A stretch of 64,000 nt of DNA from Candidatus Parcubacteria bacterium (GCA_023444045.1 JAEZRQ010000001.1:66000-129999); one strand, 5' to 3'. Positions 46,298-60,465 are shown, counted from the first letter of the stretch. Translations and numbers: made by a program. Notes: generated from the letters alone by a model not told the origin.

Positions 46298-48001
46298 ATG
46301 AAATTTTTAGGGAACAGAACATTTTTAATAATTATCACATTGTTTTTTTTATCTGCGGGGTACATTTTTGCAGATGATGTTTCAAAAGGTTTTCAAAGTT
46401 TAAAAAATGGAGCTAATAATTCTCGGGCTATTTTCTGGAACACCTCTAATGATGTTGCTAATTTATCAGCAACTCCAATTGGGACCTGTATTGAAAATAA
46501 TACTGACAAGGATTATTTTGTGCCCACTAGAACCAAAAAAGAGTGGGATTCTTTTGTGAGTATTGTGGCTAACCCATCAAATACTTTAGGTCTTAAATTA
46601 GTTGGCTGTGATGGCGATAAAGAGTGCCGCATGTCGGCTGGGGAAAATTGTGCGATTGCTCCCAATGATTGTGGTAATTGTGGTAGTTCATGTTCAGGAA
46701 CAATCTCTTACGGTGGCGAAAGTTATGGTTTGGTGCAAATTGGTGGCCAATGTTGGTTAAATAGGAATTTAAATATTGGTTCCAGGGTAAATTTTTCAAC
46801 CTATCAAACTAACAATGGGGTTACTGAAAAATATTGTGTTGGTAATACTGATGATGGTTGTACCGTTTCTGGTGGTCTTTATAGTTATATGGAAGCTATG
46901 AATCATAATTTTACAATCTCCGGCCCCTTTGCCCGTGGTATTTGTCCAGAGGGCTGGCATATTCCAAGTATGTCCGAATTTACTGTTTTAAGAGATTATT
47001 TAGGAGGGGAGACTGTGGCTGGTGGAAAATTAAAGAAAACGGGTACGGGATCAATTACTCCTATTTGGGGATTTGCTACTAATTGGCTTTCACCAAATAC
47101 TGGAGCAACAAACTCTTCTTTGTTTAATGCTGTTCCTGGTAGAATTAATCAAGACAGTGATGCTGGACGGTTAGCTGGATTTAGAACTACAGACATGAGT
47201 AGTTTTTGGTTATTGTCAAATAATTCAACATCTTTTTCTTCAGCAACAATTGACGCAAATTTAGGATTATCTGTTCGTTGTATAAGAGATATTGAAGCTC
47301 AGCGTTTTTTTGTAATTTTCAAAAAGAATGGCAACGGAACTCTCACTGGAAATACAACTCAGATATTATATGGGCCAAACAAAAATGCCGAACCAGTAAC
47401 CGCTTCATCAAATTCAGAATGCTTGTTTGTTAATTGGAGCGATGGTTATGCTGGATATACCAGAAACGTTACGAACGTAACTAATCATATTACGCTAACA
47501 GCTAACTTTAATTGTACTAAATATACTTTACAATATAACACTGCTGGTAGTGGTTCTATCACTGGTAATACCACACAGAGTGTCTTTTCTGGATGGTGTG
47601 GCTCTGCTGTTACTGCCACCCCAGCTCCGGGGTACAAATTCTTTGAGTGGACCGATGGTTCAAAAGCTAATCCAAGAACGGATTGTAATGTGACAGGCAA
47701 CATAAATGTGGCCGCAAAATTTGTGGAGGATGTTGCTGGTTGTGGGGTATGCGGAACAGCTCCTAATAAATCCTATTGTCCAAATTTGTGTTATGATGGA
47801 GGCAGAAACATGACCAATTGTGTTAAGGATTTAGATTGTCATGATGAAGAACAGAATTGTCAACAAGTATATCACCCATGTGTAGTAGGTCAATATCCTT
47901 GCACTCCTTATTATCAAACAATATGTCAATTTGGTGATCCAAGGCTTTGCGATTTTACTTATTATATAGGCAACCCAGATGCTTGGCATTGTGAATATTA
48001 A
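46298..48001 (+). CDS. secreted FISUMP-domain protein with two InlB-B-repeat-like modules and a Cys-rich C-terminus
   Basis: Signal peptide. GLVQIGGQCWLNRNL..GWHIPSMSEF..AGGKLK. Two repeats (GTLTGNTTQ.. and GSITGNTTQ..). 12 Cys in the last ~88 aa. Confidence 0.7.
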   Translation: MKFLGNRTFLIIITLFFLSAGYIFADDVSKGFQSLKNGANNSRAIFWNTSNDVANLSATPIGTCIENNTDKDYFVPTRTKKEWDSFVSIVANPSNTLGLKLVGCDGDKECRMSAGENCAIAPNDCGNCGSSCSGTISYGGESYGLVQIGGQCWLNRNLNIGSRVNFSTYQTNNGVTEKYCVGNTDDGCTVSGGLYSYMEAMNHNFTISGPFARGICPEGWHIPSMSEFTVLRDYLGGETVAGGKLKKTGTGSITPIWGFATNWLSPNTGATNSSLFNAVPGRINQDSDAGRLAGFRTTDMSSFWLLSNNSTSFSSATIDANLGLSVRCIRDIEAQRFFVIFKKNGNGTLTGNTTQILYGPNKNAEPVTASSNSECLFVNWSDGYAGYTRNVTNVTNHITLTANFNCTKYTLQYNTAGSGSITGNTTQSVFSGWCGSAVTATPAPGYKFFEWTDGSKANPRTDCNVTGNINVAAKFVEDVAGCGVCGTAPNKSYCPNLCYDGGRNMTNCVKDLDCHDEEQNCQQVYHPCVVGQYPCTPYYQTICQFGDPRLCDFTYYIGNPDAWHCEY

Positions 48002-51060: not shown

Positions 51061-51885
51061 ATGATTTTTCAAGGAGAAAAAATGTTTGACGCGTCATTTG
51101 ATATTTTTGCAAATAATTATGATGACGTTCGCCCAGGATATCCGGCCCAGATGTATAATGATATTCAAAAAATCTGTGCAGTATCAGACCAATCTAATTT
51201 ATTAGAAATAGGGGCCGGTAGTGGAATTGCTACTGTTGAGCTAGCAAAGCTTAACTGTAGAATTATTGGCATTGAACCTGGCTCTAATTTGGTAGTAATT
51301 GCCAAACAAAAAACTGCAGAATATTCTAATGTTGAAATTAGAGAAGTAATGTTTGAAGAATTTGAAACAAAAGAAAAATTTAACACTATTTTGGCTCTAA
51401 CTTCATTTCATTGGATTAGTGAGTATATGAAGTATAAGAAAGTTTTTGACTTATTAGATGACAATGGCAGTTTTGTTTTAGTTTGGAATAGTTTTTTTCA
51501 ATCAGATTCACCTGTTGCTCAGGAGATAAATGCACTTTATCAAGAGATTTTGCCTGACGTTTATCCTGCCAGTGATATAAATGTTAATGATGCGGTTCTA
51601 CAAAAGTTAAACGGAAGAGAGAAAGAAATTCATGACAGTGATTTGTTTTATATTCATTTTTTAAGGAAATATGTCACTGTTTGTAATTATGACTCTGATA
51701 CTTATCCAAAGTTACTCAATACTTTTCCAAAAATAATTAAAACAGATAAAAAGCGTCGCCAAGAATTTTTGGATCGTGTCGGCTTAATTGTTAAAAAATA
51801 TGGAAAAATATCAATTCCTCTTTTAACAACTTTAATTATTTGTAAGAAAAGAGATAACTTTCTTAGTTCTGTTTCTAAACTCTAA
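51061..51885 (+). CDS. class I SAM-dependent methyltransferase
   Basis: Motif I LLEIGAGSGIAT. An AAGGAG SD lies upstream. Confidence 0.7.
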   Translation: MIFQGEKMFDASFDIFANNYDDVRPGYPAQMYNDIQKICAVSDQSNLLEIGAGSGIATVELAKLNCRIIGIEPGSNLVVIAKQKTAEYSNVEIREVMFEEFETKEKFNTILALTSFHWISEYMKYKKVFDLLDDNGSFVLVWNSFFQSDSPVAQEINALYQEILPDVYPASDINVNDAVLQKLNGREKEIHDSDLFYIHFLRKYVTVCNYDSDTYPKLLNTFPKIIKTDKKRRQEFLDRVGLIVKKYGKISIPLLTTLIICKKRDNFLSSVSKL

Positions 51886-51905
51886 GAAGTTGAAAAGAAA
51901 GAAAA

Positions 51906-51938
51906 AGCTGCAGTCAATAATTGATTGCGGCTTTTTTT
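51906..51938 (+). terminator. intrinsic terminator
   Basis: 12-bp stem (51906-51917 / 51921-51932), then T7. Confidence 0.8.
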
Positions 51939-51997
51939 GTTAGTCGTTATAATTAAGGTATTAAATAGCCTGTAATATTTGAAGCTAGCTAACGTTA

Positions 51998-52573
51998 TTG
52001 CTTATGGAGGAGAGTAATTCTAAAATTAAATTAGAGAACGAAAACATGCTAGTAAAACAGGCCAGAACTGATGACCGTGCTTTTGAAATTTTATATAATT
52101 TTTATTTTTCTAAAATTTATTTTTTTATTTTTAAAAGAATTGGCCAGAAAGAGGTTGCTGAAGATTTAGTATCGGCCACTTTTATGAAGGTTTTCACTGG
52201 TCTTAATAAGTTTGTAGCTAAAAATGAAAATTCTTTTGCCGCTTGGGTTTATCAGATTGCTGGTAATAATATAGTTGATTATTATCGTCGTCAAAAAAAG
52301 TATTTAAGCACTGATATTAGTAGCATCACTGAGCCGGTGGACCTAAGCCAAAATCTGGAAGAAGATTTAGTGAAAAATTTAAACCGTGACTTAGTAGCTA
52401 AGGTTTTAACTAAATTATCAGAGCATGACCAGAAGATTCTCCAATTAAAGTTTTTTGCAGATTTAGACAACACGGAAATCGCTCAAATACTGGAAACAAA
52501 GCCAAACAACGTCGGCGTTTGGCTGTTTAGGGCGCTTAAAAGATTTCAAAAAGAATACCAAAAATATGAATAA
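51998..52573 (+). CDS. ECF-type sigma-70 family RNA polymerase sigma factor
   Basis: Region 2 (FAAWVYQIAGNNIVDYYRR) and region 4 HTH (LDNTEIAQILETKPNNVGVWLFRALKRF). The start is either the TTG at 51998 or the ATG at 52004. Confidence 0.8.
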   Translation: MLMEESNSKIKLENENMLVKQARTDDRAFEILYNFYFSKIYFFIFKRIGQKEVAEDLVSATFMKVFTGLNKFVAKNENSFAAWVYQIAGNNIVDYYRRQKKYLSTDISSITEPVDLSQNLEEDLVKNLNRDLVAKVLTKLSEHDQKILQLKFFADLDNTEIAQILETKPNNVGVWLFRALKRFQKEYQKYE

Positions 52574-55500
52574 AGATAAGCTGGAAAAATTTAATGATTC
52601 TTTAGAAAAGGGGGTGTTTGTTACCGGGTGTAATGATCCAGAAATTTTAGCGTTATTAAAGGCAGGAGAGCAAATTAAAAACTCTGCCTTTAATAACTCA
52701 GCCCCTGATGATAATTTTAAAGACCGCCTTAAAAGGGATATCGCGGCCAAACGTCAAGCTGATTTTTTGACTATGAAAAATAAAATTAACAGATTTTTTG
52801 AGAATTTTAATTCACAAATTAATCGCAAAAGACTATACCCAGTAATAGCTTCTTTATTGATAGTGGCGGTGGTCATGCTGACTTTTAAGTTTTGGCCTAA
52901 TAATAGTTTTTCGCCTTTAACTATTGAAGCTGCCTATGCTCATGATAATTTTACTGTTGAGCCGACTGCTGGCGGAGAATTGGGGGTTGAAAATGACACC
53001 CAGTTTATTATTAAGAGTAAGACCCCGATTACTAGCACTGATTCTTTAAGAGATAATATTACTTTATTTCCCACAACTAACTTTGAATTAAAAAAAGTAA
53101 GCGATTATGAATTTCATTTGATGCCAGAAAATAAATTAAGTGACAAGACTGTTTATCGTTTACAAATTGCCTCAACCTATATTAATGATAATGGACTGAC
53201 TGTTGATTATGATTATTCCTGGGCCTTTCAAGTAAAGGACGTTTTTAAGGTTATTGGCTCTATTCCAACTGACCGTTCTAAGGCTCCAGCCAATACTGGC
53301 ATTGAAATTAATTTTAGTACTGATAGTTTTACTGATTTTGAGGAGGCTTTTAAAATCAGCCCGGCAGTTAGCGGCCGCTTTGAAAAACATAATCGTACCA
53401 TGGTCTTTGTCCCTGAAAAACCTTTGACAGCTGGTGTTTTATATACGGTAACAGTTGATAAAAAAGTTAAAAACTCTATTAGTGGTGAAAACTTATCTGA
53501 AGATTTCCGTTTTCAATTTGAGGTTCAAGGTGTCACCTCAAAAACAGTAATTAGTTTTGTTGAAGATAGTGCAGAATTTTCCAGTACTCAAAATCCTGCT
53601 TTTGGTATTTATTTTAATCAGGGTCAGGCTGATCAAAAAATTACCACTAAAGTATATAATTTTCACAAATTGGATGATTACACAGAAGCTTTAGAAAAAT
53701 ATTATGAAATCCCTTATTGGAGTGATACTCGTTTTAATTTTAAACCAGACTATTCTAAGTTATCACTAGCAGCTACTTATGAGTTATCAGCGGTTGAAAG
53801 TGATGGTCGCCGCTTCCTTGTTTTGCCAAATAATTTACCGGTTGGTTATTACCTAATTGAAGCTAAGGTTGGCGACAGTTATGCCAAAACTTTTGTCCAA
53901 ATTTCAGATATTTCCGCTTATGCTAGCGTGACCACCGATAAAACAATCTTTTGGATAAATAGCGTAGCTGACAAAAAGCTATCTGATATTAAGGTGACTA
54001 ATTTAAACAGTGAAGAAACTGTTACCGCTAAAGATAACGTTGCTATTTTTAATAATAGTGAAAAAGGTACGGAAAGTGAGATTTTTGTTGTTAGTGCTGC
54101 TGGTGAAAATTTAGTTGTCGGTCTTAGATCAGATAATTTTTGGCGCAATGAGTCTACCAATGATGAATATTGGAATTACATATATACTGATCGCAGTTTG
54201 TATCAACCAAATGATGAAATTAATTTCTGGGGCTTAACTAGATCCAGATTAAACGATTCTAGTACTTTTAATAAGGAGGTAGAAGTTTCTCTTTTTAGTT
54301 ATGATTTTCGTGGTTTTTACCAAGAACCGGTTGCCATTGCTAAGCAAAAAATTAAAACAGATAATCAGGGCTTTTTTATTGGTAAACTAAAAATAAGCAA
54401 TCTAACTCCTAAAAACTATTATCTTAAAGTAACAATGGATGGGCGCGATGTGTCTGTTGACCATTATATTGCTATTACTGATTATGTTAAACCAGCTTAT
54501 ATGATTAGCGCTGAGCCTGAGTCTAAAGCCGTTTTAGCTGGTGATAAGATTAAATATCAAATAAAAAGTACTTTCTTTGAGGGGACGCCGCTGCCAAATA
54601 ACCCTTTAGTAGTTAATTATGAAAATACCAGTAAAGAGGTAAAAACCGATTCTCAAGGGGTGGCCAAGATGGAATACACCGCAAACTGTAGCTGTTCTGA
54701 GAATTGGTGTCCAGCTTCTTGTGAAAAATATTTATCCGCTAATCCTAAACTATCTGAGGCCGGTGAAATCGCTGGCTATGGAAGAGTTGAAGTCTTTCGT
54801 TCTTTAGTGGAATTTAGCGCTGTTAAAATTAATCAAATTCCTGGCAAAAATCAAGTGAGAATTGAGGCTGGTTTATACAATGTTGACCTAAATAATGAAG
54901 CAAATAATTGGCGAGGGCAAGTGGCTTCCGGACATCAGATAGAAGCTCAAATTACCCAAATAGAATATATCGCCTATCAAACTGGAACTTATTATGATTT
55001 TATTAATAAAACTTCCTCTCCCACCTATCGCTATGAAACTAAAAGGACACCAAAGGGAAACAAAAGTTTCATAACCAATAATGATGGACAAGGAGTTTTA
55101 GAATTTGATATTGACCCAAAATATTCTTATGAAATAAAACTAAGTGCCTCGGATAAGAATCAGAACTTTGTTTATAGTAATTTATATTTTAGCTCTCTTG
55201 AAGGTAGAAGTAACCCGGGGTACAAATATTACTATTTAATGCCTGAGGTTTTATCAGAAAGTGGTTATGATTTAGGTGAGAAAGTGAATCTAAAAATTGT
55301 TGGTGATGGTGGTGACTTAAAGGAAAATGGTAAATTTTTATTTCTTGAACTACAAAATGGTCTAAAAAATTATCAAATAAATGATGCCCCTAAAACCAGT
55401 TTTACTCTTTCAGATAATAATCTGCCTAACATGCACATTGGAGCTATCTGGTTTGATGGTAATACCTATTATTCTGTCTCTGAATTTAATATACGTTTTA

Positions 55501-57668
55501 AAAGAGAAAACCGTAAATTAGATGTCAGCGTAAAAAGTGATAAAGAAAAATATCGTCCCGGAGAGGAAGCAACCTTAAGTATTGTTGTTAAAGATCAAAA
55601 TAATCGTGGGGTTAAAACTAAAGTTAATATTAGTGCCGTTGATATTGCCATGGATCCTTTAGGCGGAATCCCTCTTGGCGATCCTTTAGAATATTTATAT
55701 AGAAGGGTTTCAAGTGGATTATTGCTCACAAAATATTCTCATAAAAATCAAATGCTTTCAGCAGGGGCTGAAGGTGGTGGTGGCGGTGGCGGTGATCGTT
55801 CTTATTTTCCAGATCTAGCTCTATTTACTCAGATAGATACTAATAGTAGCGGTGAAGCAACAGTTAAGTTTAAATTACCAGACACCGTTACCACTTGGCA
55901 GATTAATACTCAAGCAATTTCTGATGATTTAGAGGCGGGTGTTGTAACTACTAAAGTAAAAGCTAGTTTACCGTTTTTTGCTGTGGCTAATTTTTCTAAG
56001 CAATATTTAGCCGGTGATGAACCAATTATTAAAGCAGCTGTTTATGGTGACGCACTAAAAAATAATGATCAGGTTAATCTTAAATTAGAATCAGATGGTT
56101 TAGGGATAAGTGGCGACACAAAGAATACCCTCGCCTTTTCTCCGGCTTATTTTAATCTAGGTCAAATTAAGCAAGGTAACTTTGATTTTAGAATTAGCGC
56201 GTTATATCAAAATAATAGTGACGCTATTTTACATAAAATAGAGGCTGTTAGTTCTCTTCTAAGTGAAAGAACTCAAGCGTCAACTGAAGTTAAAGATGGT
56301 CAGAAGATTATTGGTTCGGATAACTTAAGTACTAAAATTACTTTAATGGATAATAATCGGGGACGTTATTATCAGGAACTGCTTAACTTAAGTTATAGTG
56401 ATGGTGCTAGAGTAGATCAAAAAGCAGCAAGGGTTGTCGCTAGTAGTTTAATGAAAAATTATTTTGGAGTTGAGGATGGGCAATTTAATCCGGATTTAAA
56501 AGTTTATCAAACTGTCGGTGGCGGTATTTCGCTACTGCCTTATTCTAGTGAAGATTTACAACTCTCAGTGTTGATGTCTTTAATTTCTAGTGAGTCATTT
56601 GATAAAAATTTATTAGCCAATTATTTCTATAGTATTTACAACAATACTAAATCAAACCGAGAGGAGATTTCTTTGGCTTTGTCTGGCTTAGCCGCTTTAA
56701 ATGAGCCGGTGCTAATTCAATTGCGTAGTTTTAGTAAAATAGAAAAATTAACACCAATGGAAAAACTTTATTTAGCTCTAGGAGCTCAAGAAATAGGTGA
56801 CGCTACCCTAGCAAAAAATATTTATCAAGATCTTATTAGTCAATTTGGTGAAGAACTTGATCCATATCTACGCCTTAAAATAGATGATAAAGATAATGAC
56901 GCTAACTCTAAGGCCACGGCCTTAACCGCTATTTTAGCAGTTGGCTTAGATGACAACCGGGCTGAAAAAATGTGGCAGTATGCCGTAAAAAATCAACCAC
57001 AGGAATCTTTAAGCAGTTTAGAAAGATTACTTTATTTAAGTAATGCTTTGCCTAATACTCCTGCCGGTGACGCTAAATTTTCTTTAGTGATTGATGGCCA
57101 AGAAATTATTCAAGATTTAAAGAGAAATGAAAAATATTTATTCTCTGTTAGTCCTGAGCAACTTAAGAATTTAAATATTAAAGTCTTAAGTGGTAATATT
57201 TTGGCAGTTAGTGATTATGAAGTTCCGGCCAACCCAGACAAGCAAAGCAAACTAGTGGCCATCAGTAAATCTTATTTTAGTAACAACAAGAAAACATCAG
57301 AGTTTAAAGAGGGTGATATTATAGAAATTAGGATTAAACCAGAAATAAAAGATAGTGCAATTGATGGATTGTATGAGGTAACTGATATTTTACCAAGCGG
57401 TTTAAAATTGATTACTAATGTTTATAGCCGCAATTTATCTTCTAACTGTAATGTTTGGCACCCTTACGAAGTTAATGGCCAGAAAGTAAAGTTTATTATT
57501 GATAAGAATTGGAATAAGAGTGGTGGCTGCCAACGCGAAGAAATTAGATACTTTGCTCGTGTTAGCCAGCCGGGTAAATATGTAGTTGAACCAGCCATGA
57601 TTCAATCAGTTGAGTCAGTGGCAGTTAAAAGCTTTTCTGATGGTGGACAAATTAATATTAAATATTAA
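52566..57668 (+). CDS. membrane-anchored alpha-2-macroglobulin-family giant protein (putative anti-sigma N-terminus; no thioester motif)
   Basis: The ATG overlaps the sigma gene by 8 nt. About 89 aa are cytoplasmic, then one TM segment (aa 90-108), Ig-like/MG-type repeats (TDRSLYQPNDEINFWG), an A2M-domain hallmark (FPDLALF..TWQINTQAIS) and a C-terminal LPSGLKL module. No CxEQ. Confidence 0.7.
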   Translation: MNKDKLEKFNDSLEKGVFVTGCNDPEILALLKAGEQIKNSAFNNSAPDDNFKDRLKRDIAAKRQADFLTMKNKINRFFENFNSQINRKRLYPVIASLLIVAVVMLTFKFWPNNSFSPLTIEAAYAHDNFTVEPTAGGELGVENDTQFIIKSKTPITSTDSLRDNITLFPTTNFELKKVSDYEFHLMPENKLSDKTVYRLQIASTYINDNGLTVDYDYSWAFQVKDVFKVIGSIPTDRSKAPANTGIEINFSTDSFTDFEEAFKISPAVSGRFEKHNRTMVFVPEKPLTAGVLYTVTVDKKVKNSISGENLSEDFRFQFEVQGVTSKTVISFVEDSAEFSSTQNPAFGIYFNQGQADQKITTKVYNFHKLDDYTEALEKYYEIPYWSDTRFNFKPDYSKLSLAATYELSAVESDGRRFLVLPNNLPVGYYLIEAKVGDSYAKTFVQISDISAYASVTTDKTIFWINSVADKKLSDIKVTNLNSEETVTAKDNVAIFNNSEKGTESEIFVVSAAGENLVVGLRSDNFWRNESTNDEYWNYIYTDRSLYQPNDEINFWGLTRSRLNDSSTFNKEVEVSLFSYDFRGFYQEPVAIAKQKIKTDNQGFFIGKLKISNLTPKNYYLKVTMDGRDVSVDHYIAITDYVKPAYMISAEPESKAVLAGDKIKYQIKSTFFEGTPLPNNPLVVNYENTSKEVKTDSQGVAKMEYTANCSCSENWCPASCEKYLSANPKLSEAGEIAGYGRVEVFRSLVEFSAVKINQIPGKNQVRIEAGLYNVDLNNEANNWRGQVASGHQIEAQITQIEYIAYQTGTYYDFINKTSSPTYRYETKRTPKGNKSFITNNDGQGVLEFDIDPKYSYEIKLSASDKNQNFVYSNLYFSSLEGRSNPGYKYYYLMPEVLSESGYDLGEKVNLKIVGDGGDLKENGKFLFLELQNGLKNYQINDAPKTSFTLSDNNLPNMHIGAIWFDGNTYYSVSEFNIRFKRENRKLDVSVKSDKEKYRPGEEATLSIVVKDQNNRGVKTKVNISAVDIAMDPLGGIPLGDPLEYLYRRVSSGLLLTKYSHKNQMLSAGAEGGGGGGGDRSYFPDLALFTQIDTNSSGEATVKFKLPDTVTTWQINTQAISDDLEAGVVTTKVKASLPFFAVANFSKQYLAGDEPIIKAAVYGDALKNNDQVNLKLESDGLGISGDTKNTLAFSPAYFNLGQIKQGNFDFRISALYQNNSDAILHKIEAVSSLLSERTQASTEVKDGQKIIGSDNLSTKITLMDNNRGRYYQELLNLSYSDGARVDQKAARVVASSLMKNYFGVEDGQFNPDLKVYQTVGGGISLLPYSSEDLQLSVLMSLISSESFDKNLLANYFYSIYNNTKSNREEISLALSGLAALNEPVLIQLRSFSKIEKLTPMEKLYLALGAQEIGDATLAKNIYQDLISQFGEELDPYLRLKIDDKDNDANSKATALTAILAVGLDDNRAEKMWQYAVKNQPQESLSSLERLLYLSNALPNTPAGDAKFSLVIDGQEIIQDLKRNEKYLFSVSPEQLKNLNIKVLSGNILAVSDYEVPANPDKQSKLVAISKSYFSNNKKTSEFKEGDIIEIRIKPEIKDSAIDGLYEVTDILPSGLKLITNVYSRNLSSNCNVWHPYEVNGQKVKFIIDKNWNKSGGCQREEIRYFARVSQPGKYVVEPAMIQSVESVAVKSFSDGGQINIKY

Positions 57669-58555
57669 TGAGCAGTAAAAAAAGAAAATTAATTATTATC
57701 TTAGCAATACCGGTTTTCATTTTGACCGGTTTTTGCTTTTGGAGAAGTTCTAATAATAAACCAGATACTAAACCAAATTTAATTATTCCGGTTAATTATA
57801 ATCAGGAATTATTTTTAAGAGCCGTTTCTTATTTTCCTAAAAGTCAGGAAATTAATGCTACTAAAATCTCTGGCTTAATTGCTCCTCATCATGATATTGC
57901 TTCTCTTTACACGGCGGAATTATTTCAGAAAGTGGGCCGCAAAGATATTAAGAGAGTAATTATTATTGGACCAAATCATGAAAATAAAGGCGCTGGTGAT
58001 ATTATTAGTGGTAACTTTTCTTATCGTTATTTAGGAGAAGAAATTAGTTTTGATAAAGTGTTAATTAATAGGATGTTAAAAGATAAAATAGCTGTTTTGG
58101 ATAATGAAAGACTAAATACCGAACATTCAATTTCTGCTCTAGTACCATTTGTTAATTATTATTTTGCAGATGCTAAGATTGTTCCTTTAATACTTAGCTC
58201 TAGAGTAAGTTTAGAACAGGCTGTAAAACTAGGTGAGTATTTAGCTCCCTATTTGGATGAAGAAACTATTATTATTGCTTCTATAGACTTTTCTCATTAC
58301 TTAAGCACAGAAAAGGCTAACAATAATGATTCAATAACTCGTGAAGCTCTATTAGATCATAATTATAATAAATTATTTTCTTTAAATAGTGATTATTTAG
58401 ACTCACCAGCTGCTCTAGTAACTGTTTTATCAGCTGTTAATAAAAATGAGGTTTCTCAGGTAGAGATAGTCCGTCAAGCTAATCTAGCAGAAGCGATTGG
58501 TGCCGGCAGTGTGATTAACTCCACTAGTTACTTTACGGCTTTATTACATCATTAA
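57668..58555 (+). CDS. membrane-anchored Memo-like (AmmeMemoRadiSam system protein B family) protein
   Basis: TAATG overlap with the upstream stop. N-terminal TM segment. GLIAPHHD, IIIGPNHE and DFSHY motifs. Confidence 0.65.
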   Translation: MSSKKRKLIIILAIPVFILTGFCFWRSSNNKPDTKPNLIIPVNYNQELFLRAVSYFPKSQEINATKISGLIAPHHDIASLYTAELFQKVGRKDIKRVIIIGPNHENKGAGDIISGNFSYRYLGEEISFDKVLINRMLKDKIAVLDNERLNTEHSISALVPFVNYYFADAKIVPLILSSRVSLEQAVKLGEYLAPYLDEETIIIASIDFSHYLSTEKANNNDSITREALLDHNYNKLFSLNSDYLDSPAALVTVLSAVNKNEVSQVEIVRQANLAEAIGAGSVINSTSYFTALLHH

Positions 58556-58632
58556 AGAATTATTCCTTTATTGCCAAAACAGCAAATATAATATACAATT
58601 TTTATACTTAATTTACTGTTTTAAACTAATAT

Positions 58633-60465
58633 ATGAAAAATTTATTTAAGAATTTAATCAGTTTTTTCTTGGTTTTTTTGATTATTGCGGCTATTTTTAG
58701 TGCCTTTGGCTTTAATTCAAACACTAAAACAGTCGGACTTGATGTGTTAGTTGGTCGCATTAATAACGAAGAAATTGATTCAGTAACGGTTGAGGGTGAT
58801 AAGATTTCCCTTGCTTTAAAAGATGGTAATAAGGAGATTGTTAAAAAAGAAAGCCAGGATTCTTTGACATCACTACTTAAAGATCTAGGTGTGCCGGCTG
58901 ATAAAATTTCAAAAATTAATATTACTATTAAGGATCAAAGTGGTTGGAATTATATTTTAATGAATATTTTACCATTTTTAATTCCCTTTATTTTAATTGT
59001 TCTTTTTTTGATGTATACCATGCGTGGCGTTTCGGGAATGAATTCACGAGCGATGAATTTTGGTCAGTCAAATGCTAAAGATTTTAATCTTAATCAAAAA
59101 GATAAGGTTAGTTTTAAAGATGTGGCTGGTGCTAAAGAGGCCAAGGAGGAGCTCAGAGAAATTGTTGATTTTCTTAAATTTCCCAAAAAGTTCCATGATT
59201 TAGGGGCTAAAATTCCTCGGGGCGTTTTGCTTTTAGGTAGCCCTGGAACCGGTAAAACTTTAATGGCTCGTGCTGTGGCCGGTGAAGCTGGTGTGCCATT
59301 TTTTAATATTTCTGGTTCAGAATTTGTGGAAATGTTTGTTGGTGTTGGTGCTTCCAGAGTTAGATCACTTTTTGAAAAAGCCAAAAAAGAATCCCCTTGT
59401 ATTATTTTTATTGATGAGATTGATGCTGTTGGTCGCCGTCGTGGTTCCGGTCTTGGTGGTAGTCACGATGAAAGAGAGCAAACGCTTAATCAAATTTTAG
59501 TAGAGATGGATGGTTTTGATACCACTAATAATATTATTGTGATTGCAGCCACTAATAGGCCAGATGTTTTAGATCCTGCTTTACTGCGCCCCGGTCGTTT
59601 TGATAGGCAAGTAGTAATTGATAAGCCTGATTTAAAGGATCGTGAAGAAATTTTAAATGTTCATGCGAGAAAAAAACCTTTAGAACCAGAAGTTAGTTTA
59701 AAATCAGTCGCCGAGAGAACCCCTGGATTTTCTGGGGCAGATTTAGCTAATTTACTAAATGAGGCAGCTATTTTAGCGGCCCGTCAAGATAAAAAACTGA
59801 TTGGTCAAGCAGAAATTTTTGAAGCGATTGAGAAAGTAATGATCGGCCCAGAACGTAAAAGTCGAGTAATTACTGAACAAGATAAAAAAATAACTGCTTA
59901 TCATGAAGCAGGTCACGCTGTCGTGGCTCACTTTTTACCTGGGGTTGATCCGGTTCAAAAAGTTTCTATTATTGCTCGCGGTCAAGCGGGTGGTTATACC
60001 TTAAAAGTACCAGTTGAAGATCGTCATTACCACTCTAAATCAGACTTTATTAATGAATTATCGGTATTACTTTCTGGCCATTTAGTTGAGAAGGAGGTTT
60101 TTGGCGAAGTAACTACTGGCGCCACCTCTGATTTAAGAAGGGCCACTGCCATCGCTCGCAGTTTAGTAACTGATTACGGAATGAGTGAAAATCTTGGACC
60201 ACGCACCTTTGGTGAAAAGGAAGAAATGATCTTTTTGGGGCGGGAAATTCATGAACAAAGAGATTACAGTGAAAAAGTAGCGGAAAAAATTGATGAGGAA
60301 ATAGAAATGTTCTTAGAGAAAGCCTCTAAAGCTGCCTTAAAAGTTATTAAAGATAAAAAAGATTACTTAGAAAAGGTGGTGTCTGTCTTGCTAGAGAAAG
60401 AAACAATTGAAAAAGAGGAGTTTGATGCTTTAATGGCTGACGATTCTTTAATAGCCAAGAGCTAA
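58633..60465 (+). CDS. ftsH: ATP-dependent zinc metalloprotease FtsH
   Basis: Two TM segments, Walker [12 protein letters not shown] region, HEAGH zinc motif. Confidence 0.95.

What the first reader, a model, noticed from the sequence alone, without database searches (positions are those of the whole stretch)
51998..58555. Translationally coupled ECF sigma factor, anti-sigma-like giant alpha-2-macroglobulin-family protein, and membrane-anchored Memo-like protein
The start of the 1700-aa gene overlaps the sigma gene by 8 nt (ATG at 52566, sigma stop at 52571-52573). Its stop overlaps the start of the Memo-like gene (TAATG at 57666-57670). The giant protein has about 89 cytoplasmic residues, one TM helix (aa 90-108) and then an extracytoplasmic A2M-like body. 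That is the topology of a single-pass anti-sigma factor, here with a protease-trap fold as the sensing domain.

In the bacterial A2M operons I know of, A2M is paired with PBP1c, not with a sigma factor or a Memo homologue. My hypothesis is a surface module that reports proteolytic attack, or host contact, to an ECF sigma factor. I do not recognise this three-gene combination as a described system.
Basis: partly seen in the sequence, partly recalled or inferred. Interest (0 to 1): 0.7.

Follow-up and report, generated by a model that had tools for sequence, protein, structure and literature searches.

The report
Sigma factor wired to membrane macroglobulin
A small-genome (CPR-type) bacterium has a three-gene unit in which a stress-type sigma factor is coupled to a giant membrane-anchored protease-trap-like (alpha-2-macroglobulin) protein whose short inner tail probably holds the sigma factor in check, plus a membrane-tethered Memo enzyme; this would be an undescribed way for a cell to sense events at its surface.

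Summary
An ECF sigma gene (true start probably ATG 52004), a 1700-aa single-pass A2M-family gene and a membrane-anchored Memo gene are translationally coupled.

Across 79 related loci:
- The older conserved pair is A2M plus Memo (51 of 70 assessable loci, Clostridia and CPR).
- An upstream sigma occurs only when the A2M protein has a long cytoplasmic tail (22/1/0/48).
- This coupling arose at least four times.
- In Bacillota the tail is a canonical zf-HC2 anti-sigma domain.

The anti-sigma reading is therefore well supported by comparison, but binding is untested and the window's tail matches no known anti-sigma domain.

New finding: an ECF-type promoter motif, GTAAT-N16-CGT[TA], lies just before the sigma ATG, implying a leaderless mRNA. 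A second copy sits inside codons 22-30 of the A2M gene and is conserved at the DNA level while the amino acids vary. This implies sigma-driven transcription of A2M and Memo without the sigma gene.

The body has the A2M fold (best matches E. coli ECAM and Salmonella A2M), a disordered bait-like loop and no thioester. Protease sensing remains a hypothesis. No publication describing this was found. I rate it a new variant of a known kind.

The parts
51907..51938 (+). Hairpin plus T-run after the upstream methyltransferase-like gene. Probably a terminator that insulates the module from upstream transcription.
   Evidence: Read directly from the sequence. Rfam's only weak hits here are leader/terminator-like.
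51971..51996 (+). P1: ECF-type promoter motif TGTAAT-N16-CGTT. Its -10 element ends 7 nt before the sigma ATG, so the sigma mRNA is predicted to be leaderless or nearly so and autoregulated.
   Evidence: The motif is at the same position in 13 of the 15 window-type loci under the exact pattern, and in 14 if L070's variant -35 (TGTCAC) is counted.
52004..52573 (+). ECF sigma factor, 189 aa (sigma-2 plus sigma-4 only).
   Evidence: Pfam Sigma70_r2 and Sigma70_r4_2. NCBIfam sigma70-ECF at 1e-28, with the closest families being BldN and SigM, both below their cut-offs. Closest solved structures are SigW 5wuq and BldN 6dxo. The start at 52004 is inferred from orthologues.
52566..57668 (+). Giant single-pass membrane protein (1700 aa): cytoplasmic tail, TM helix, then a thioester-less A2M-family ectodomain.
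52566..52829 (+). Cytoplasmic tail (aa 1-88), the putative sigma-binding (anti-sigma) domain. It is predicted as three helices (3-15, 25-39, 51-87). F51, L55, I59 and R63 on helix 3 are conserved at the protein level.
   Evidence: The tail family is found only on A2M-size proteins.
52629..52654 (+). P2: a second copy of the promoter motif (TGTAAT-N16-CGTT), embedded in codons 22-30 (C N D P E I L A L) of the giant gene.
   Evidence: The DNA is conserved while the amino acids vary (C/R and A/S/P). The summed log10 probability of the synonymous-codon choices is -25 over 15 loci.
52773..52775 (+). In-frame ATG (Met70), 19 codons before the TM helix. An in-frame ATG 12-26 codons before the TM helix is present in all 15 window-type genes examined. 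It is a candidate start for a tail-less isoform made from P2 transcripts (hypothesis).
   Evidence: No Shine-Dalgarno sequence is visible.
52830..52898 (+). Transmembrane helix (aa 89-111).
   Evidence: Hydropathy and positive-inside charge.
52932..52940 (+). Conserved A-Y-A just before HDNF, 14 residues outside the membrane. Possibly a signal-peptidase-type cleavage site (weak lead).
53247..53522 (+). Big_5 bacterial Ig-like domain (aa 228-319).
   Evidence: Pfam 2.5e-8.
54177..54398 (+). MG2 macroglobulin domain (aa 538-611).
   Evidence: Pfam 6.7e-9.
55257..55646 (+). A2M bait-region domain (aa 898-1027).
   Evidence: Pfam 3.9e-9. Beta-sandwich in the model.
55650..55814 (+). Bait-like flexible loop (aa 1029-1083), ending in the G-rich AEGGGGGGGDRS. 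Many relatives have a Hint domain inserted at this site.
   Evidence: pLDDT below 50 for model residues 150-155 and 168-204..
55818..56069 (+). A2M domain (aa 1085-1168).
   Evidence: Pfam 1.1e-11. This is the only stretch with sequence similarity to solved A2Ms (human A2M, 1e-5).
56358..57056 (+). All-helical domain nested in a beta domain (aa ~1265-1497), equivalent to the thioester domain (TED) but without a CxEQ thioester.
   Evidence: Secondary structure of the model. Fold matches to ECAM and Salmonella A2M. No CxEQ motif.
57261..57608 (+). C-terminal bMG10-like beta-sandwich (aa 1566-1681).
   Evidence: Weak Pfam hit at 0.0083, but significant in homologues. Beta-sandwich in the model.
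57668..58555 (+). Memo-family protein (295 aa) with an N-terminal membrane anchor (aa ~5-28). The family keeps an invariant His/Asp set: H74, H75, H104, H153, D207, H210, D245.

Best explanation
This is a self-contained, autoregulated ECF sigma/anti-sigma signalling operon. The anti-sigma factor is the roughly 88-residue cytoplasmic tail of a single-pass membrane protein whose large outside portion is a thioester-less alpha-2-macroglobulin (A2M) fold. A membrane-tethered, outward-facing Memo-family metalloenzyme is co-expressed.

Shown:
- The three genes are translationally coupled.
- The ectodomain has the A2M fold, with a flexible bait-like loop and no thioester.
- A2M plus Memo is an old, widespread pair in Clostridia and CPR bacteria.
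- An upstream sigma occurs only together with a long tail.
- A motif, GTAAT-N16-CGT[TA], occurs at two fixed places: just upstream of the sigma ATG (P1) and inside codons 22-30 of the A2M gene (P2).

Inferred:
1. In the resting state the tail, probably its long third helix bearing F51, L55, I59 and R63, holds the sigma factor at the membrane.
2. An event at the ectodomain leads to loss of the tail's grip. The event is most plausibly cleavage of, or a conformational change in, the A2M body. Release would most likely follow the regulated-proteolysis route known for other single-pass anti-sigma factors.
3. Free sigma then transcribes from P1 (more sigma and full-length sensor) and from P2.
4. P2 transcripts lack the sigma gene and the first ~32 codons of the tail. 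They would yield A2M and Memo without adding sigma, possibly as a tail-less isoform starting at Met70. That would raise the envelope-protective output without proportionally raising sigma or its inhibitor.
For: Architecture and coupling.

Synteny in 79 loci from genome representatives:
- Long tail (45 aa or more before the TM) with adjacent same-strand sigma in 22 loci, long tail without sigma in 1, short tail with sigma in 0, neither in 48 (Fisher p = 2e-17, not corrected for phylogeny).
- Sigma/A2M gaps range from -47 to +12 nt in 21 of the 22 loci; L075 is +189.

Independent origins: four tail types (window type, zf-HC2, Peribacteria type, L017) sit on separate branches of the A2M tree.

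Canonical anti-sigma domain on the same body: Pfam zf-HC2 best E = 4.3e-8 across the aligned tails and 1.6e-6 on the full-length L005 protein. At least 14 further zf-HC2 plus A2M protein clusters exist in Bacillota.

The tail is a real protein domain:
- The frame is open in all orthologues, against 5 and 15 stops in the other two frames.
- L55 uses six Leu codons and R63 uses six Arg codons.
- AlphaFold predicts three helices, pLDDT 77.6.
- A profile search of 1.84 billion proteins finds the tail almost only at the N-terminus of A2M-size proteins or fragments.

Promoters:
- 31 motif matches in 300 kb of the 15 window-type loci, 29 of them at P1 or P2. Shuffles give about 6.
- 2 matches in 1.09 Mb of the other loci.
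- P2 is conserved at the DNA level (N23 is AAT in 17/17, L30 is TTR in 17/17, Arg always CGT, Ala/Ser/Pro always NCG; summed log10 P = -25).
- ECF sigmas usually autoregulate and are co-encoded with their regulators and targets (PMC7826278).

Precedent: RsbN is a single-pass anti-sigma with three helices and a long alpha-3, has no sequence similarity to other anti-sigmas, and its gene is a direct sigma-BldN target (PMC6101532). BldN and SigW are the closest solved relatives of this sigma.

A2M fold.
Against: - No direct or modelled evidence that the tail binds the sigma factor.
- The window-type tail has no Pfam, PDB-sequence or Foldseek similarity to any anti-sigma domain.
- Part of the tail's apparent peptide conservation (N23, L30) comes from the embedded DNA motif, which leaves one clearly protein-constrained helix.
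- P1 and P2 are inferred promoters. There are no transcript data, and the -35 (GTAAT) differs from the common ECF 'AAC'.
- P2 lies about 110 nt upstream of Met70 with no visible ribosome-binding site, so the tail-less isoform is speculative.
- A cut in the bait loop would leave about 940 ectodomain residues attached to the TM helix. How that would license intramembrane proteolysis is unclear.
- The co-occurrence counts are phylogenetically non-independent.
Confidence: 0.6

Rival explanations
1. The A2M protein and Memo are simply the sigma factor's target genes, an envelope-protection regulon co-transcribed with and driven by the sigma. The tail is not an anti-sigma domain. Sigma activity is controlled in another way, such as transcriptionally, by an unlinked anti-sigma factor, or by turnover.
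For: P2 marks A2M and Memo as sigma targets. The tail has no similarity to known anti-sigma domains. A2M plus Memo functions widely without any sigma.
Against: It does not explain why a long cytoplasmic tail appears if and only if a sigma gene is directly upstream (22/1/0/48). It does not explain why four unrelated tails evolved on this body in sigma-linked lineages, or why one of them is a bona fide zf-HC2 anti-sigma domain. It also does not explain the tight start/stop overlaps, which fit stoichiometric co-production.
Confidence: 0.2
2. The anti-sigma reading is correct, but the ectodomain is not a protease sensor. It is a structural or enzymatic cell-envelope component that works with Memo (and, in some lineages, a CapA-like PGA_cap domain) on a surface polymer. 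The sigma factor then reports envelope or assembly stress, or a ligand, rather than proteolysis.
For: There is no thioester. The Memo partner is conserved and has an intact His/Asp site. Memo-PGA_cap fusions and adjacent PGA_cap genes occur. In relatives the 'bait' loop holds a self-cleaving Hint-type domain, which suggests autoprocessing rather than a bait for foreign proteases.
Against: The full A2M domain set and the flexible loop at the bait position are retained. Thioester-less MagD still traps a protease (PMC5764988). Dockerin-bearing family members in cellulolytic clostridia would fit an extracellular protease-inhibitor role. No polymer-synthesis genes are conserved next to the module.
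Confidence: 0.3
3. The 69 codons upstream of Met70 are not translated. The real A2M gene starts at Met70, and the 'tail' is a non-coding promoter and leader region that happens to be open in frame.
For: P2 lies in this region. An in-frame ATG (Met70 in the window) is present before the TM helix in all 15 genes. Among close relatives the few substitutions in codons 31-69 show no third-position bias.
Against: Frame 0 is open from the sigma overlap in every orthologue, although the other frames carry 5 and 15 stops. F51, L55, I59 and R63 are conserved as amino acids through many different codons. The ATG overlaps the sigma stop in most loci.
Confidence: 0.05

Closest known systems
Single-pass ECF anti-sigma factors with extracytoplasmic sensor domains (B. 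subtilis SigW-RsiW; the RsiV type)
   Same: Small two-domain ECF sigma gene followed by, and translationally coupled to, a gene for a protein with an N-terminal cytoplasmic sigma-binding segment, one TM helix and an outside sensor. Autoregulatory promoter. SigW is the closest solved relative of this sigma. Bacillota members of this A2M family carry the same zf-HC2 domain type as RsiW.
   Different: The outside domain is a ~1590-residue A2M fold, far larger than usual. The window's tail lacks the HxxxCxxC zinc motif and any detectable anti-sigma-domain similarity. A second sigma-type promoter lies inside the anti-sigma coding region. Regulated proteolysis is assumed, not shown.
Streptomyces sigma-BldN / RsbN (class III anti-sigma domain; PMC6101532)
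   Same: BldN is the best NCBIfam family match (below its cut-off) and the second-best solved relative. RsbN is single-pass, has three cytoplasmic helices with a long alpha-3, shows no sequence similarity to other anti-sigmas, and its gene is itself a sigma target. The window tail is predicted as three helices, with the conserved residues on a long third helix.
   Different: No sequence or Foldseek similarity between the tail and RsbN. The lineage and ectodomain are different. The resemblance is architectural only.
Bacterial alpha-2-macroglobulins: Type I (E. coli ECAM/YfhM, Salmonella A2M) and Type II (P. aeruginosa MagD)
   Same: Same multi-domain fold: MG domains, bait-region domain, A2M domain, nested helical TED-like domain and a C-terminal beta-sandwich. 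Best structural hits are 5a42 and 4u48. Membrane-anchored and outward-facing. Lacks the thioester, like Type II.
   Different: 13-15% identity. Only the A2M domain is detectable by sequence against solved structures. It is anchored by an N-terminal TM helix in Clostridia and CPR lineages. The conserved partner is Memo, not PBP1c or MagA/B/C/E/F. It has an extra Big_5 domain and is fused to a sigma-linked cytoplasmic tail.
Memo / AmmeMemoRadiSam system protein B
   Same: Clear family membership (Pfam 74.9 bits against a cut-off of 27; TIGR04336 99.5 bits against 26), with a conserved His/Asp set.
   Different: Membrane-anchored and predicted to face outward. No AMMECR1 or radical-SAM partner is conserved nearby. 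Instead it is paired with an A2M-like protein and in some lineages fused to PGA_cap.

Membership tests
ECF (group IV) sigma-70 factors | [quoted passage not shown] | tested here: met
   Sigma70_r2 at aa 36-101 and Sigma70_r4_2 at aa 132-182 on the 191-aa TTG-start translation scanned. The protein is 189 aa from the preferred ATG at 52004. TIGR02937 scores 100 bits against a cut-off of 42.9.
ECF (group IV) sigma-70 factors | Autoregulation from a conserved group-specific promoter with a CGT-containing -10 element. | tested here: met
   TGTAAT-N16-CGTT lies at a fixed distance from the ATG in 13 of 15 loci under the exact pattern (14 counting L070's variant -35) and is absent elsewhere. Promoter function is inferred, not measured.
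Class I / zinc-binding (ZAS) anti-sigma domain | HxxxCxxC zinc motif, or a match to Pfam zf-HC2 or another anti-sigma-domain model. | tested here: not met
   The window tail has one Cys, no His-x3-Cys-x2-Cys motif and no Pfam hit at E up to 1. The feature is met in Bacillota relatives (L005, L016, P0109 and others).
Anti-sigma factor (functional class) | Binds its cognate sigma factor and blocks its association with RNA polymerase or promoter DNA. | not testable with these tools
The only evidence is comparative.
Class III (RsbN-like) anti-sigma domain | Three helices with a long alpha-3 clamped between sigma-2 and sigma-4. | tested here: inconclusive
   AlphaFold predicts helices at 3-15, 25-39 and 51-87. 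There is no sequence or fold match to RsbN.
Alpha-2-macroglobulin / thioester-containing protein superfamily | MG-domain array, bait-region domain, A2M domain, helical TED nested in a CUB-like domain, and a C-terminal beta-sandwich. | tested here: met
   Pfam MG2, A2M_BRD and A2M are above their cut-offs. Model of aa 880-1700 has pTM 0.71. Foldseek gives 4e-40 to ECAM and 2.5e-39 to Salmonella A2M.
Alpha-2-macroglobulin / thioester-containing protein superfamily | Internal CxEQ thioester. | tested here: not met
   No CxEQ motif in the window protein. Among P0001-P0053 the only occurrence is a CKEQ at residue 721 of P0025, well outside the TED-equivalent region.
Type I bacterial A2M (ECAM-like) | Thioester, lipoprotein anchor and a neighbouring PBP1c gene. 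| tested here: not met
   No thioester. The anchor is a TM helix. No PBP1c-like conserved neighbour in 79 loci.
Type II bacterial A2M (MagD/YfaS-like) | Thioester-less A2M encoded in a mag-type multi-gene operon in Gram-negative bacteria. | tested here: not met
   The thioester-less feature is shared. However, the only conserved neighbours are Memo and sigma, and the lineages are Clostridia and CPR.
Memo family (PF01875 / TIGR04336) | Profile match above the curated cut-off with conserved His/Asp residues. | tested here: met
AmmeMemoRadiSam three-protein system | Memo co-encoded with AMMECR1 and a radical-SAM activase. | tested here: not met
   No such neighbours are conserved within 4 kb of the A2M gene in 79 loci, and none lie next to the window module.

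The most novel reading that the evidence does not exclude
The A2M ectodomain is a direct protease sensor. Attack on its bait loop, or the resulting A2M-type conformational change, exposes the juxtamembrane A-x-A site and triggers intramembrane proteolysis of the tail, which frees the sigma factor. The sigma then fires an intragenic promoter (P2) to make a tail-less A2M isoform plus Memo. The result is a self-amplifying anti-protease shield at the surface of CPR/monoderm cells, in which sensor and effector are isoforms of one gene.
Probability: 0.2. Interest if true: 0.85.

Novelty: new variant of a known kind. Interest (0 to 1): 0.66.

Why it matters
ECF sigma/anti-sigma pairs are a major route for bacterial signalling across the membrane, but the input is known for only a few. 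An anti-sigma factor whose sensor is an entire A2M protease-trap fold would define a new input class, and it suggests a testable signal (proteolysis at the cell surface).

It would also extend bacterial A2Ms beyond the two Gram-negative types. This would be a third type: TM-anchored and Memo-partnered, widespread in Clostridia and in the poorly understood CPR/Patescibacteria, where few regulatory circuits have been worked out.

The promoter embedded in the anti-sigma coding sequence is conserved as DNA while the encoded residues change. It is a clear example of overlapping codes, and of how a sensor gene might also yield an effector isoform.

The conserved outward-facing Memo partner gives a concrete genetic context for a protein family whose bacterial function is unknown.

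Tried and rejected
- **Sigma/tail co-fold.** I submitted a paired alignment of 15 orthologous pairs joined by a linker.
- **Tail against known families and structures.** Pfam at E up to 1 and a PDB profile search at E up to 10 gave nothing credible for the window type. Foldseek of the tail model against PDB gave no match.
- **Is the tail a general-purpose anti-sigma domain used with other sensors?** No. The profile search found it almost only on A2M-size proteins or fragments.
- **P0010/P0011 'short' proteins starting at the internal Met.** These are contig-end artefacts and not evidence for a short isoform.
- **Non-coding-leader reading of the tail.** Rejected on frame maintenance and codon variety.
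- **P2-like second promoter in the other sigma-linked types.** None found in the Peribacteria, zf-HC2 or L017 types. L024 and L044 do have it.
- **The same motif upstream of sigma-less A2M genes** (which would suggest regulation in trans). Absent: 2 hits in 1.09 Mb.
- **PGA_cap, or a second sigma, Memo or A2M gene in the window.** None.
- **Rfam on 51700-53100.** Only sub-threshold hits on the upstream terminator.
- **Generic sigma-70 promoter scan.** At chance level.
- **Literature.** No paper links anti-sigma factors with macroglobulins or Memo with bacterial A2M. The ECF reclassification paper does not mention A2M, Memo or CPR, and its supplements were not available.
- **Published BldN and SigW promoter consensus sequences.** I could not retrieve them, so the comparison with GTAAT-N16-CGTT rests on general knowledge that ECF -10 elements contain CGT.
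- **First alignment for locus retrieval.** It was too diverse. A narrower one worked.

Full report
**1.

The + strand carries three tightly packed ORFs:
- A sigma gene ending at 52573.
- A 1700-aa gene at 52566-57668.
- A 295-aa gene at 57668-58555.

The giant gene's ATG overlaps the sigma stop by 8 nt (ATGAATAA). Its TAA shares a base with the next ATG (TAATG).

Domain assignments:
- Sigma: Pfam Sigma70_r2 plus Sigma70_r4_2.
- Giant protein: Big_5, MG2, A2M_BRD and A2M above the curated cut-offs, plus a weak bMG10.
- Third protein: Memo at 7.8e-21. NCBIfam calls it AmmeMemoRadiSam protein B (TIGR04336, 99.5 bits against a cut-off of 26).

Hydropathy and charge place aa 1-87 of the giant protein in the cytoplasm, a TM helix at about 88-112, and the rest outside. 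The Memo protein has an N-terminal anchor.

- The sigma start is almost certainly ATG 52004 (189 aa, like its orthologues), not TTG 51998.
- The giant protein has no CxEQ thioester.
- A thioester-less 'Type II' A2M class in mag operons already exists alongside the PBP1c-linked Type I class (PMC5764988).

**2. The giant protein has the A2M fold**

An AlphaFold model of aa 880-1700 (pLDDT 83, pTM 0.71) shows, in order:
- Beta-sandwich domains.
- A roughly 50-residue low-confidence loop between the bait-region domain and the A2M domain (protein aa ~1029-1083).
- Further beta domains.
- A helical domain nested in a beta domain.
- A final beta-sandwich.

Foldseek's best hits are E. coli ECAM (5a42, 4e-40) and Salmonella A2M (4u48), followed by CD109, A2ML1, TEP1 and complement C3/C5. 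By sequence, only the A2M domain is detectable against solved structures (human A2M, 1e-5). This is therefore a very divergent branch.

**3. Comparative genomics changes the picture**

Homologues are found in Patescibacteria/CPR and in Bacillota. A scan of one genome per species returned 79 loci. Only two neighbour families are conserved:
- A Memo gene directly downstream on the same strand, often with a 4-nt overlap.
- An ECF sigma gene directly upstream on the same strand.

There is no PBP1c and no Mag partner.

Memo is adjacent in 51 of 70 assessable loci, including many Clostridia that have no sigma. A2M plus Memo is therefore the older core.

Sigma presence tracks one feature of the A2M protein, the length of its pre-TM tail:

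| | Sigma adjacent | No sigma |
|---|---|---|
| Tail of 45 aa or more | 22 | 1 (L040, start probably over-extended) |
| Short tail | 0 | 48 |

Fisher p is 2e-17, without phylogenetic correction.

On a tree of the A2M bodies, the sigma-linked forms fall into at least four groups with unrelated tails:
- The window type (Uhrbacteria, Magasanikbacteria and relatives).
- A Peribacteria type.
- L017.
- A Bacillota type.

The Bacillota tail is a Pfam zf-HC2 zinc anti-sigma domain (best E = 4.3e-8; 1.6e-6 on the full-length L005 protein). At least 14 further zf-HC2 plus A2M protein clusters exist.

Repeated, independent fusion of sigma-linked cytoplasmic tails to this ectodomain, one of them a textbook anti-sigma domain, is the strongest evidence that the window protein is an anti-sigma factor.

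**4. The window-type tail**

It matches nothing in Pfam or PDB. Its AlphaFold model is three helices (3-15, 25-39, 51-87; pLDDT 77.6) with no Foldseek match. A profile search of 1.84 billion proteins found it almost only at the N-terminus of A2M-size proteins or fragments of them. It is therefore private to this module.

The closest analogy is RsbN, the anti-sigma factor of BldN (PMC6101532):
- It is single-pass.
- It has three helices, with a long alpha-3 clamped between sigma-2 and sigma-4.
- It has no sequence similarity to other anti-sigma factors.

BldN and SigW are the closest solved relatives of this sigma. This is a resemblance, not a membership. I could not run the sigma/tail co-fold.

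**5. Two sigma-type promoters, one inside the gene**

Upstream of the sigma genes of the window-type loci there is a conserved TGTAAT-N16-CGTT motif. Its -10 element ends about 7 nt before the ATG (window 51971-51996). This implies an autoregulated, essentially leaderless mRNA.

A second copy lies inside the A2M gene (window 52629-52654), on codons 22-30. In 14 of the 15 window-type genes first examined, and in all 17 once starts were corrected and L024 and L044 were added, the DNA reads [T/C]GT AAT ... NCG TTR although the encoded residues vary (Cys or Arg; Ala, Ser or Pro). Specifically:
- Arg is always CGT.
- Ala, Ser and Pro always use NCG.
- Asn is always AAT.
- Leu is always TTR.

The summed log10 probability, given each gene's own codon usage, is -25. 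That figure treats the loci as independent.

By contrast, F51, L55, I59 and R63 further along the tail are conserved as amino acids through many different codons (six for Leu, six for Arg). The frame also stays open in all orthologues, while the other two frames carry 5 and 15 stops. The tail is therefore translated, and it also carries an embedded DNA signal.

The motif is highly specific:
- 31 matches in 300 kb of the 15 window-type loci, 29 of them at these two positions. Shuffles give about 6.
- 2 matches in 1.09 Mb of all other loci.

The simplest reading is two promoters for this sigma factor. That fits the general rule that ECF sigmas autoregulate and sit next to their regulators and targets (PMC7826278).

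P2 transcripts would lack the sigma gene and the first ~32 tail codons. An in-frame ATG 12-26 codons before the TM helix is present in all 15 genes (window Met70) and could start a tail-less A2M, but no ribosome-binding site is evident. That step is hypothesis.

**6. The Memo partner**

Across 54 family members, H74, H75, H104, H153, D207, H210 and D245 are invariant or nearly so, and 53 of 54 have an N-terminal hydrophobic anchor. This fits an active, outward-facing, membrane-tethered metalloenzyme. No AMMECR1 or radical-SAM partner is nearby, so this is not the AmmeMemoRadiSam system. In Collierbacteria and some others, Memo is fused to a CapA-like PGA_cap domain or followed by such a gene. 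The window has none.

**7. Mechanism and its limits**

Shown:
- The architecture and the A2M fold.
- The synteny rules.
- The DNA-level motif at two fixed positions.

Inferred:
- The tail sequesters the sigma factor.
- An ectodomain event releases it.
- Released sigma fires P1 and P2.

The nature of the signal is open. A protease-sensing role is attractive for three reasons:
- The fold retains a flexible loop at the bait position.
- Thioester-less MagD still traps a protease.
- Some clostridial relatives carry dockerins, which would place them in cellulosomes.

There are also reasons for doubt. A cut in the loop would leave about 940 residues on the membrane stub. Many relatives carry a self-cleaving Hint-type domain in that same loop, which points to autoprocessing. 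A conserved A-x-A|(Q/E)DNF junction 14-29 residues outside the membrane could be a signal-peptidase-type site, as used by RsiV-type anti-sigma factors. That comparison rests on my own knowledge and is only a lead.

**8. Novelty**

Full-text searches found no paper connecting anti-sigma factors with macroglobulins, or bacterial A2M with Memo. The ECF reclassification paper mentions none of A2M, Memo or CPR.

I classify this as a new variant of known kinds: an ECF sigma/anti-sigma system with a new sensor fold and an intragenic target promoter, and a third genomic type of bacterial A2M. Confidence in the anti-sigma reading is about 0.6. Confidence in the protease-sensing, two-isoform model is about 0.2.

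Noticed in passing
Relatives P0016-P0042 and others, e.g. P0023 aa 1102-1235 and P0017 aa 1017-1152. The equivalent window site is aa 1065-1081 (55758-55808).: Many CPR homologues have a ~130-aa Hint/intein-like domain inserted between the bait-region domain and the A2M domain, in the G-rich loop. It has intein blocks (N-terminal Cys in 'CFLxGT', 'TPEH', C-terminal 'VHN'), but the +1 residue is D, E or Q rather than C, S or T. It should therefore self-cleave rather than splice, which would give a two-chain A2M or a reactive thioester at the bait position. The window protein keeps the uninterrupted loop.
   Followed up: partly
L048:13034-14791, L044:12998-14872, L047:8113-10047, L027:14413-15537, L029:6136-7287: In Collierbacteria and some other CPR lineages the downstream Memo protein is fused to a CapA-like PGA_cap (metallophosphatase-type) domain (Pfam 1e-58 to 1e-66). 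In L027 and L029 a separate PGA_cap gene sits beside the module. This hints at a shared envelope function. The window has no such gene.
   Followed up: partly
Proteins P0140, P0142-P0147, P0149, P0151-P0153, P0156, P0158: A2M-like proteins of this family in cellulolytic Clostridia (for example Acetivibrio clariflavus) carry a dockerin type I domain, so they are probably cellulosome components. A few others (P0134, P0135) carry a Cu_amine_oxidN1 domain.
   Followed up: no
window 51944-51960, and the equivalent positions in L080, L081, L025-L028 and L041: A TATAAT or extended -10-like element (window TATAAT at 51948-51953) lies 5-20 nt upstream of the P1 -35 element in many orthologous loci. This suggests a housekeeping promoter in tandem with the sigma-dependent one.
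   Followed up: partly
window 52566-52772 compared with L080:764-970 and L081:3001-3207: Among relatives that are 90-92% identical at the protein level, the first 69 codons of the giant gene are far more conserved at the DNA level than the body. Only 1-3 codons differ synonymously, where about 11 would be expected. This goes beyond what the 26-nt P2 motif explains and may reflect extra RNA- or DNA-level constraint.
   Followed up: partly
window 52932-52940 (A123-Y-A125) and the CPR homologues: A conserved A-[YFN]-A followed by [QE]DNF lies 14-29 residues after the TM helix in sigma-linked and sigma-less CPR members alike. It looks like a signal-peptidase site at an unusual distance from the membrane.
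   Followed up: partly
window 58571-60465; L081:9068-10900: FtsH, a membrane AAA protease, lies directly downstream of Memo in the window and in L081. A sigma-70-like TTGCCA-17-TACAAT site sits in the 77-nt spacer. L080 also has a downstream gene in that position, but it is cut by the contig end and was not identified. This adjacency is not conserved in more distant loci.
   Followed up: no
Record titles of L001, L003, L021, L025, L027, L032, L037, L041, L055, L059, L060, L070, L077: Several MAG records titled 'uncultured Gammaproteobacteria' or 'Pseudomonadales' carry A2M, sigma and Memo loci that cluster within the CPR/Patescibacteria clades of the tree. These titles look like taxonomic mislabels.
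   Followed up: no
window 46298-48001: A 567-aa Cys-rich protein with an N-terminal signal-like segment is encoded about 4 kb upstream. I did not analyse it.
   Followed up: no
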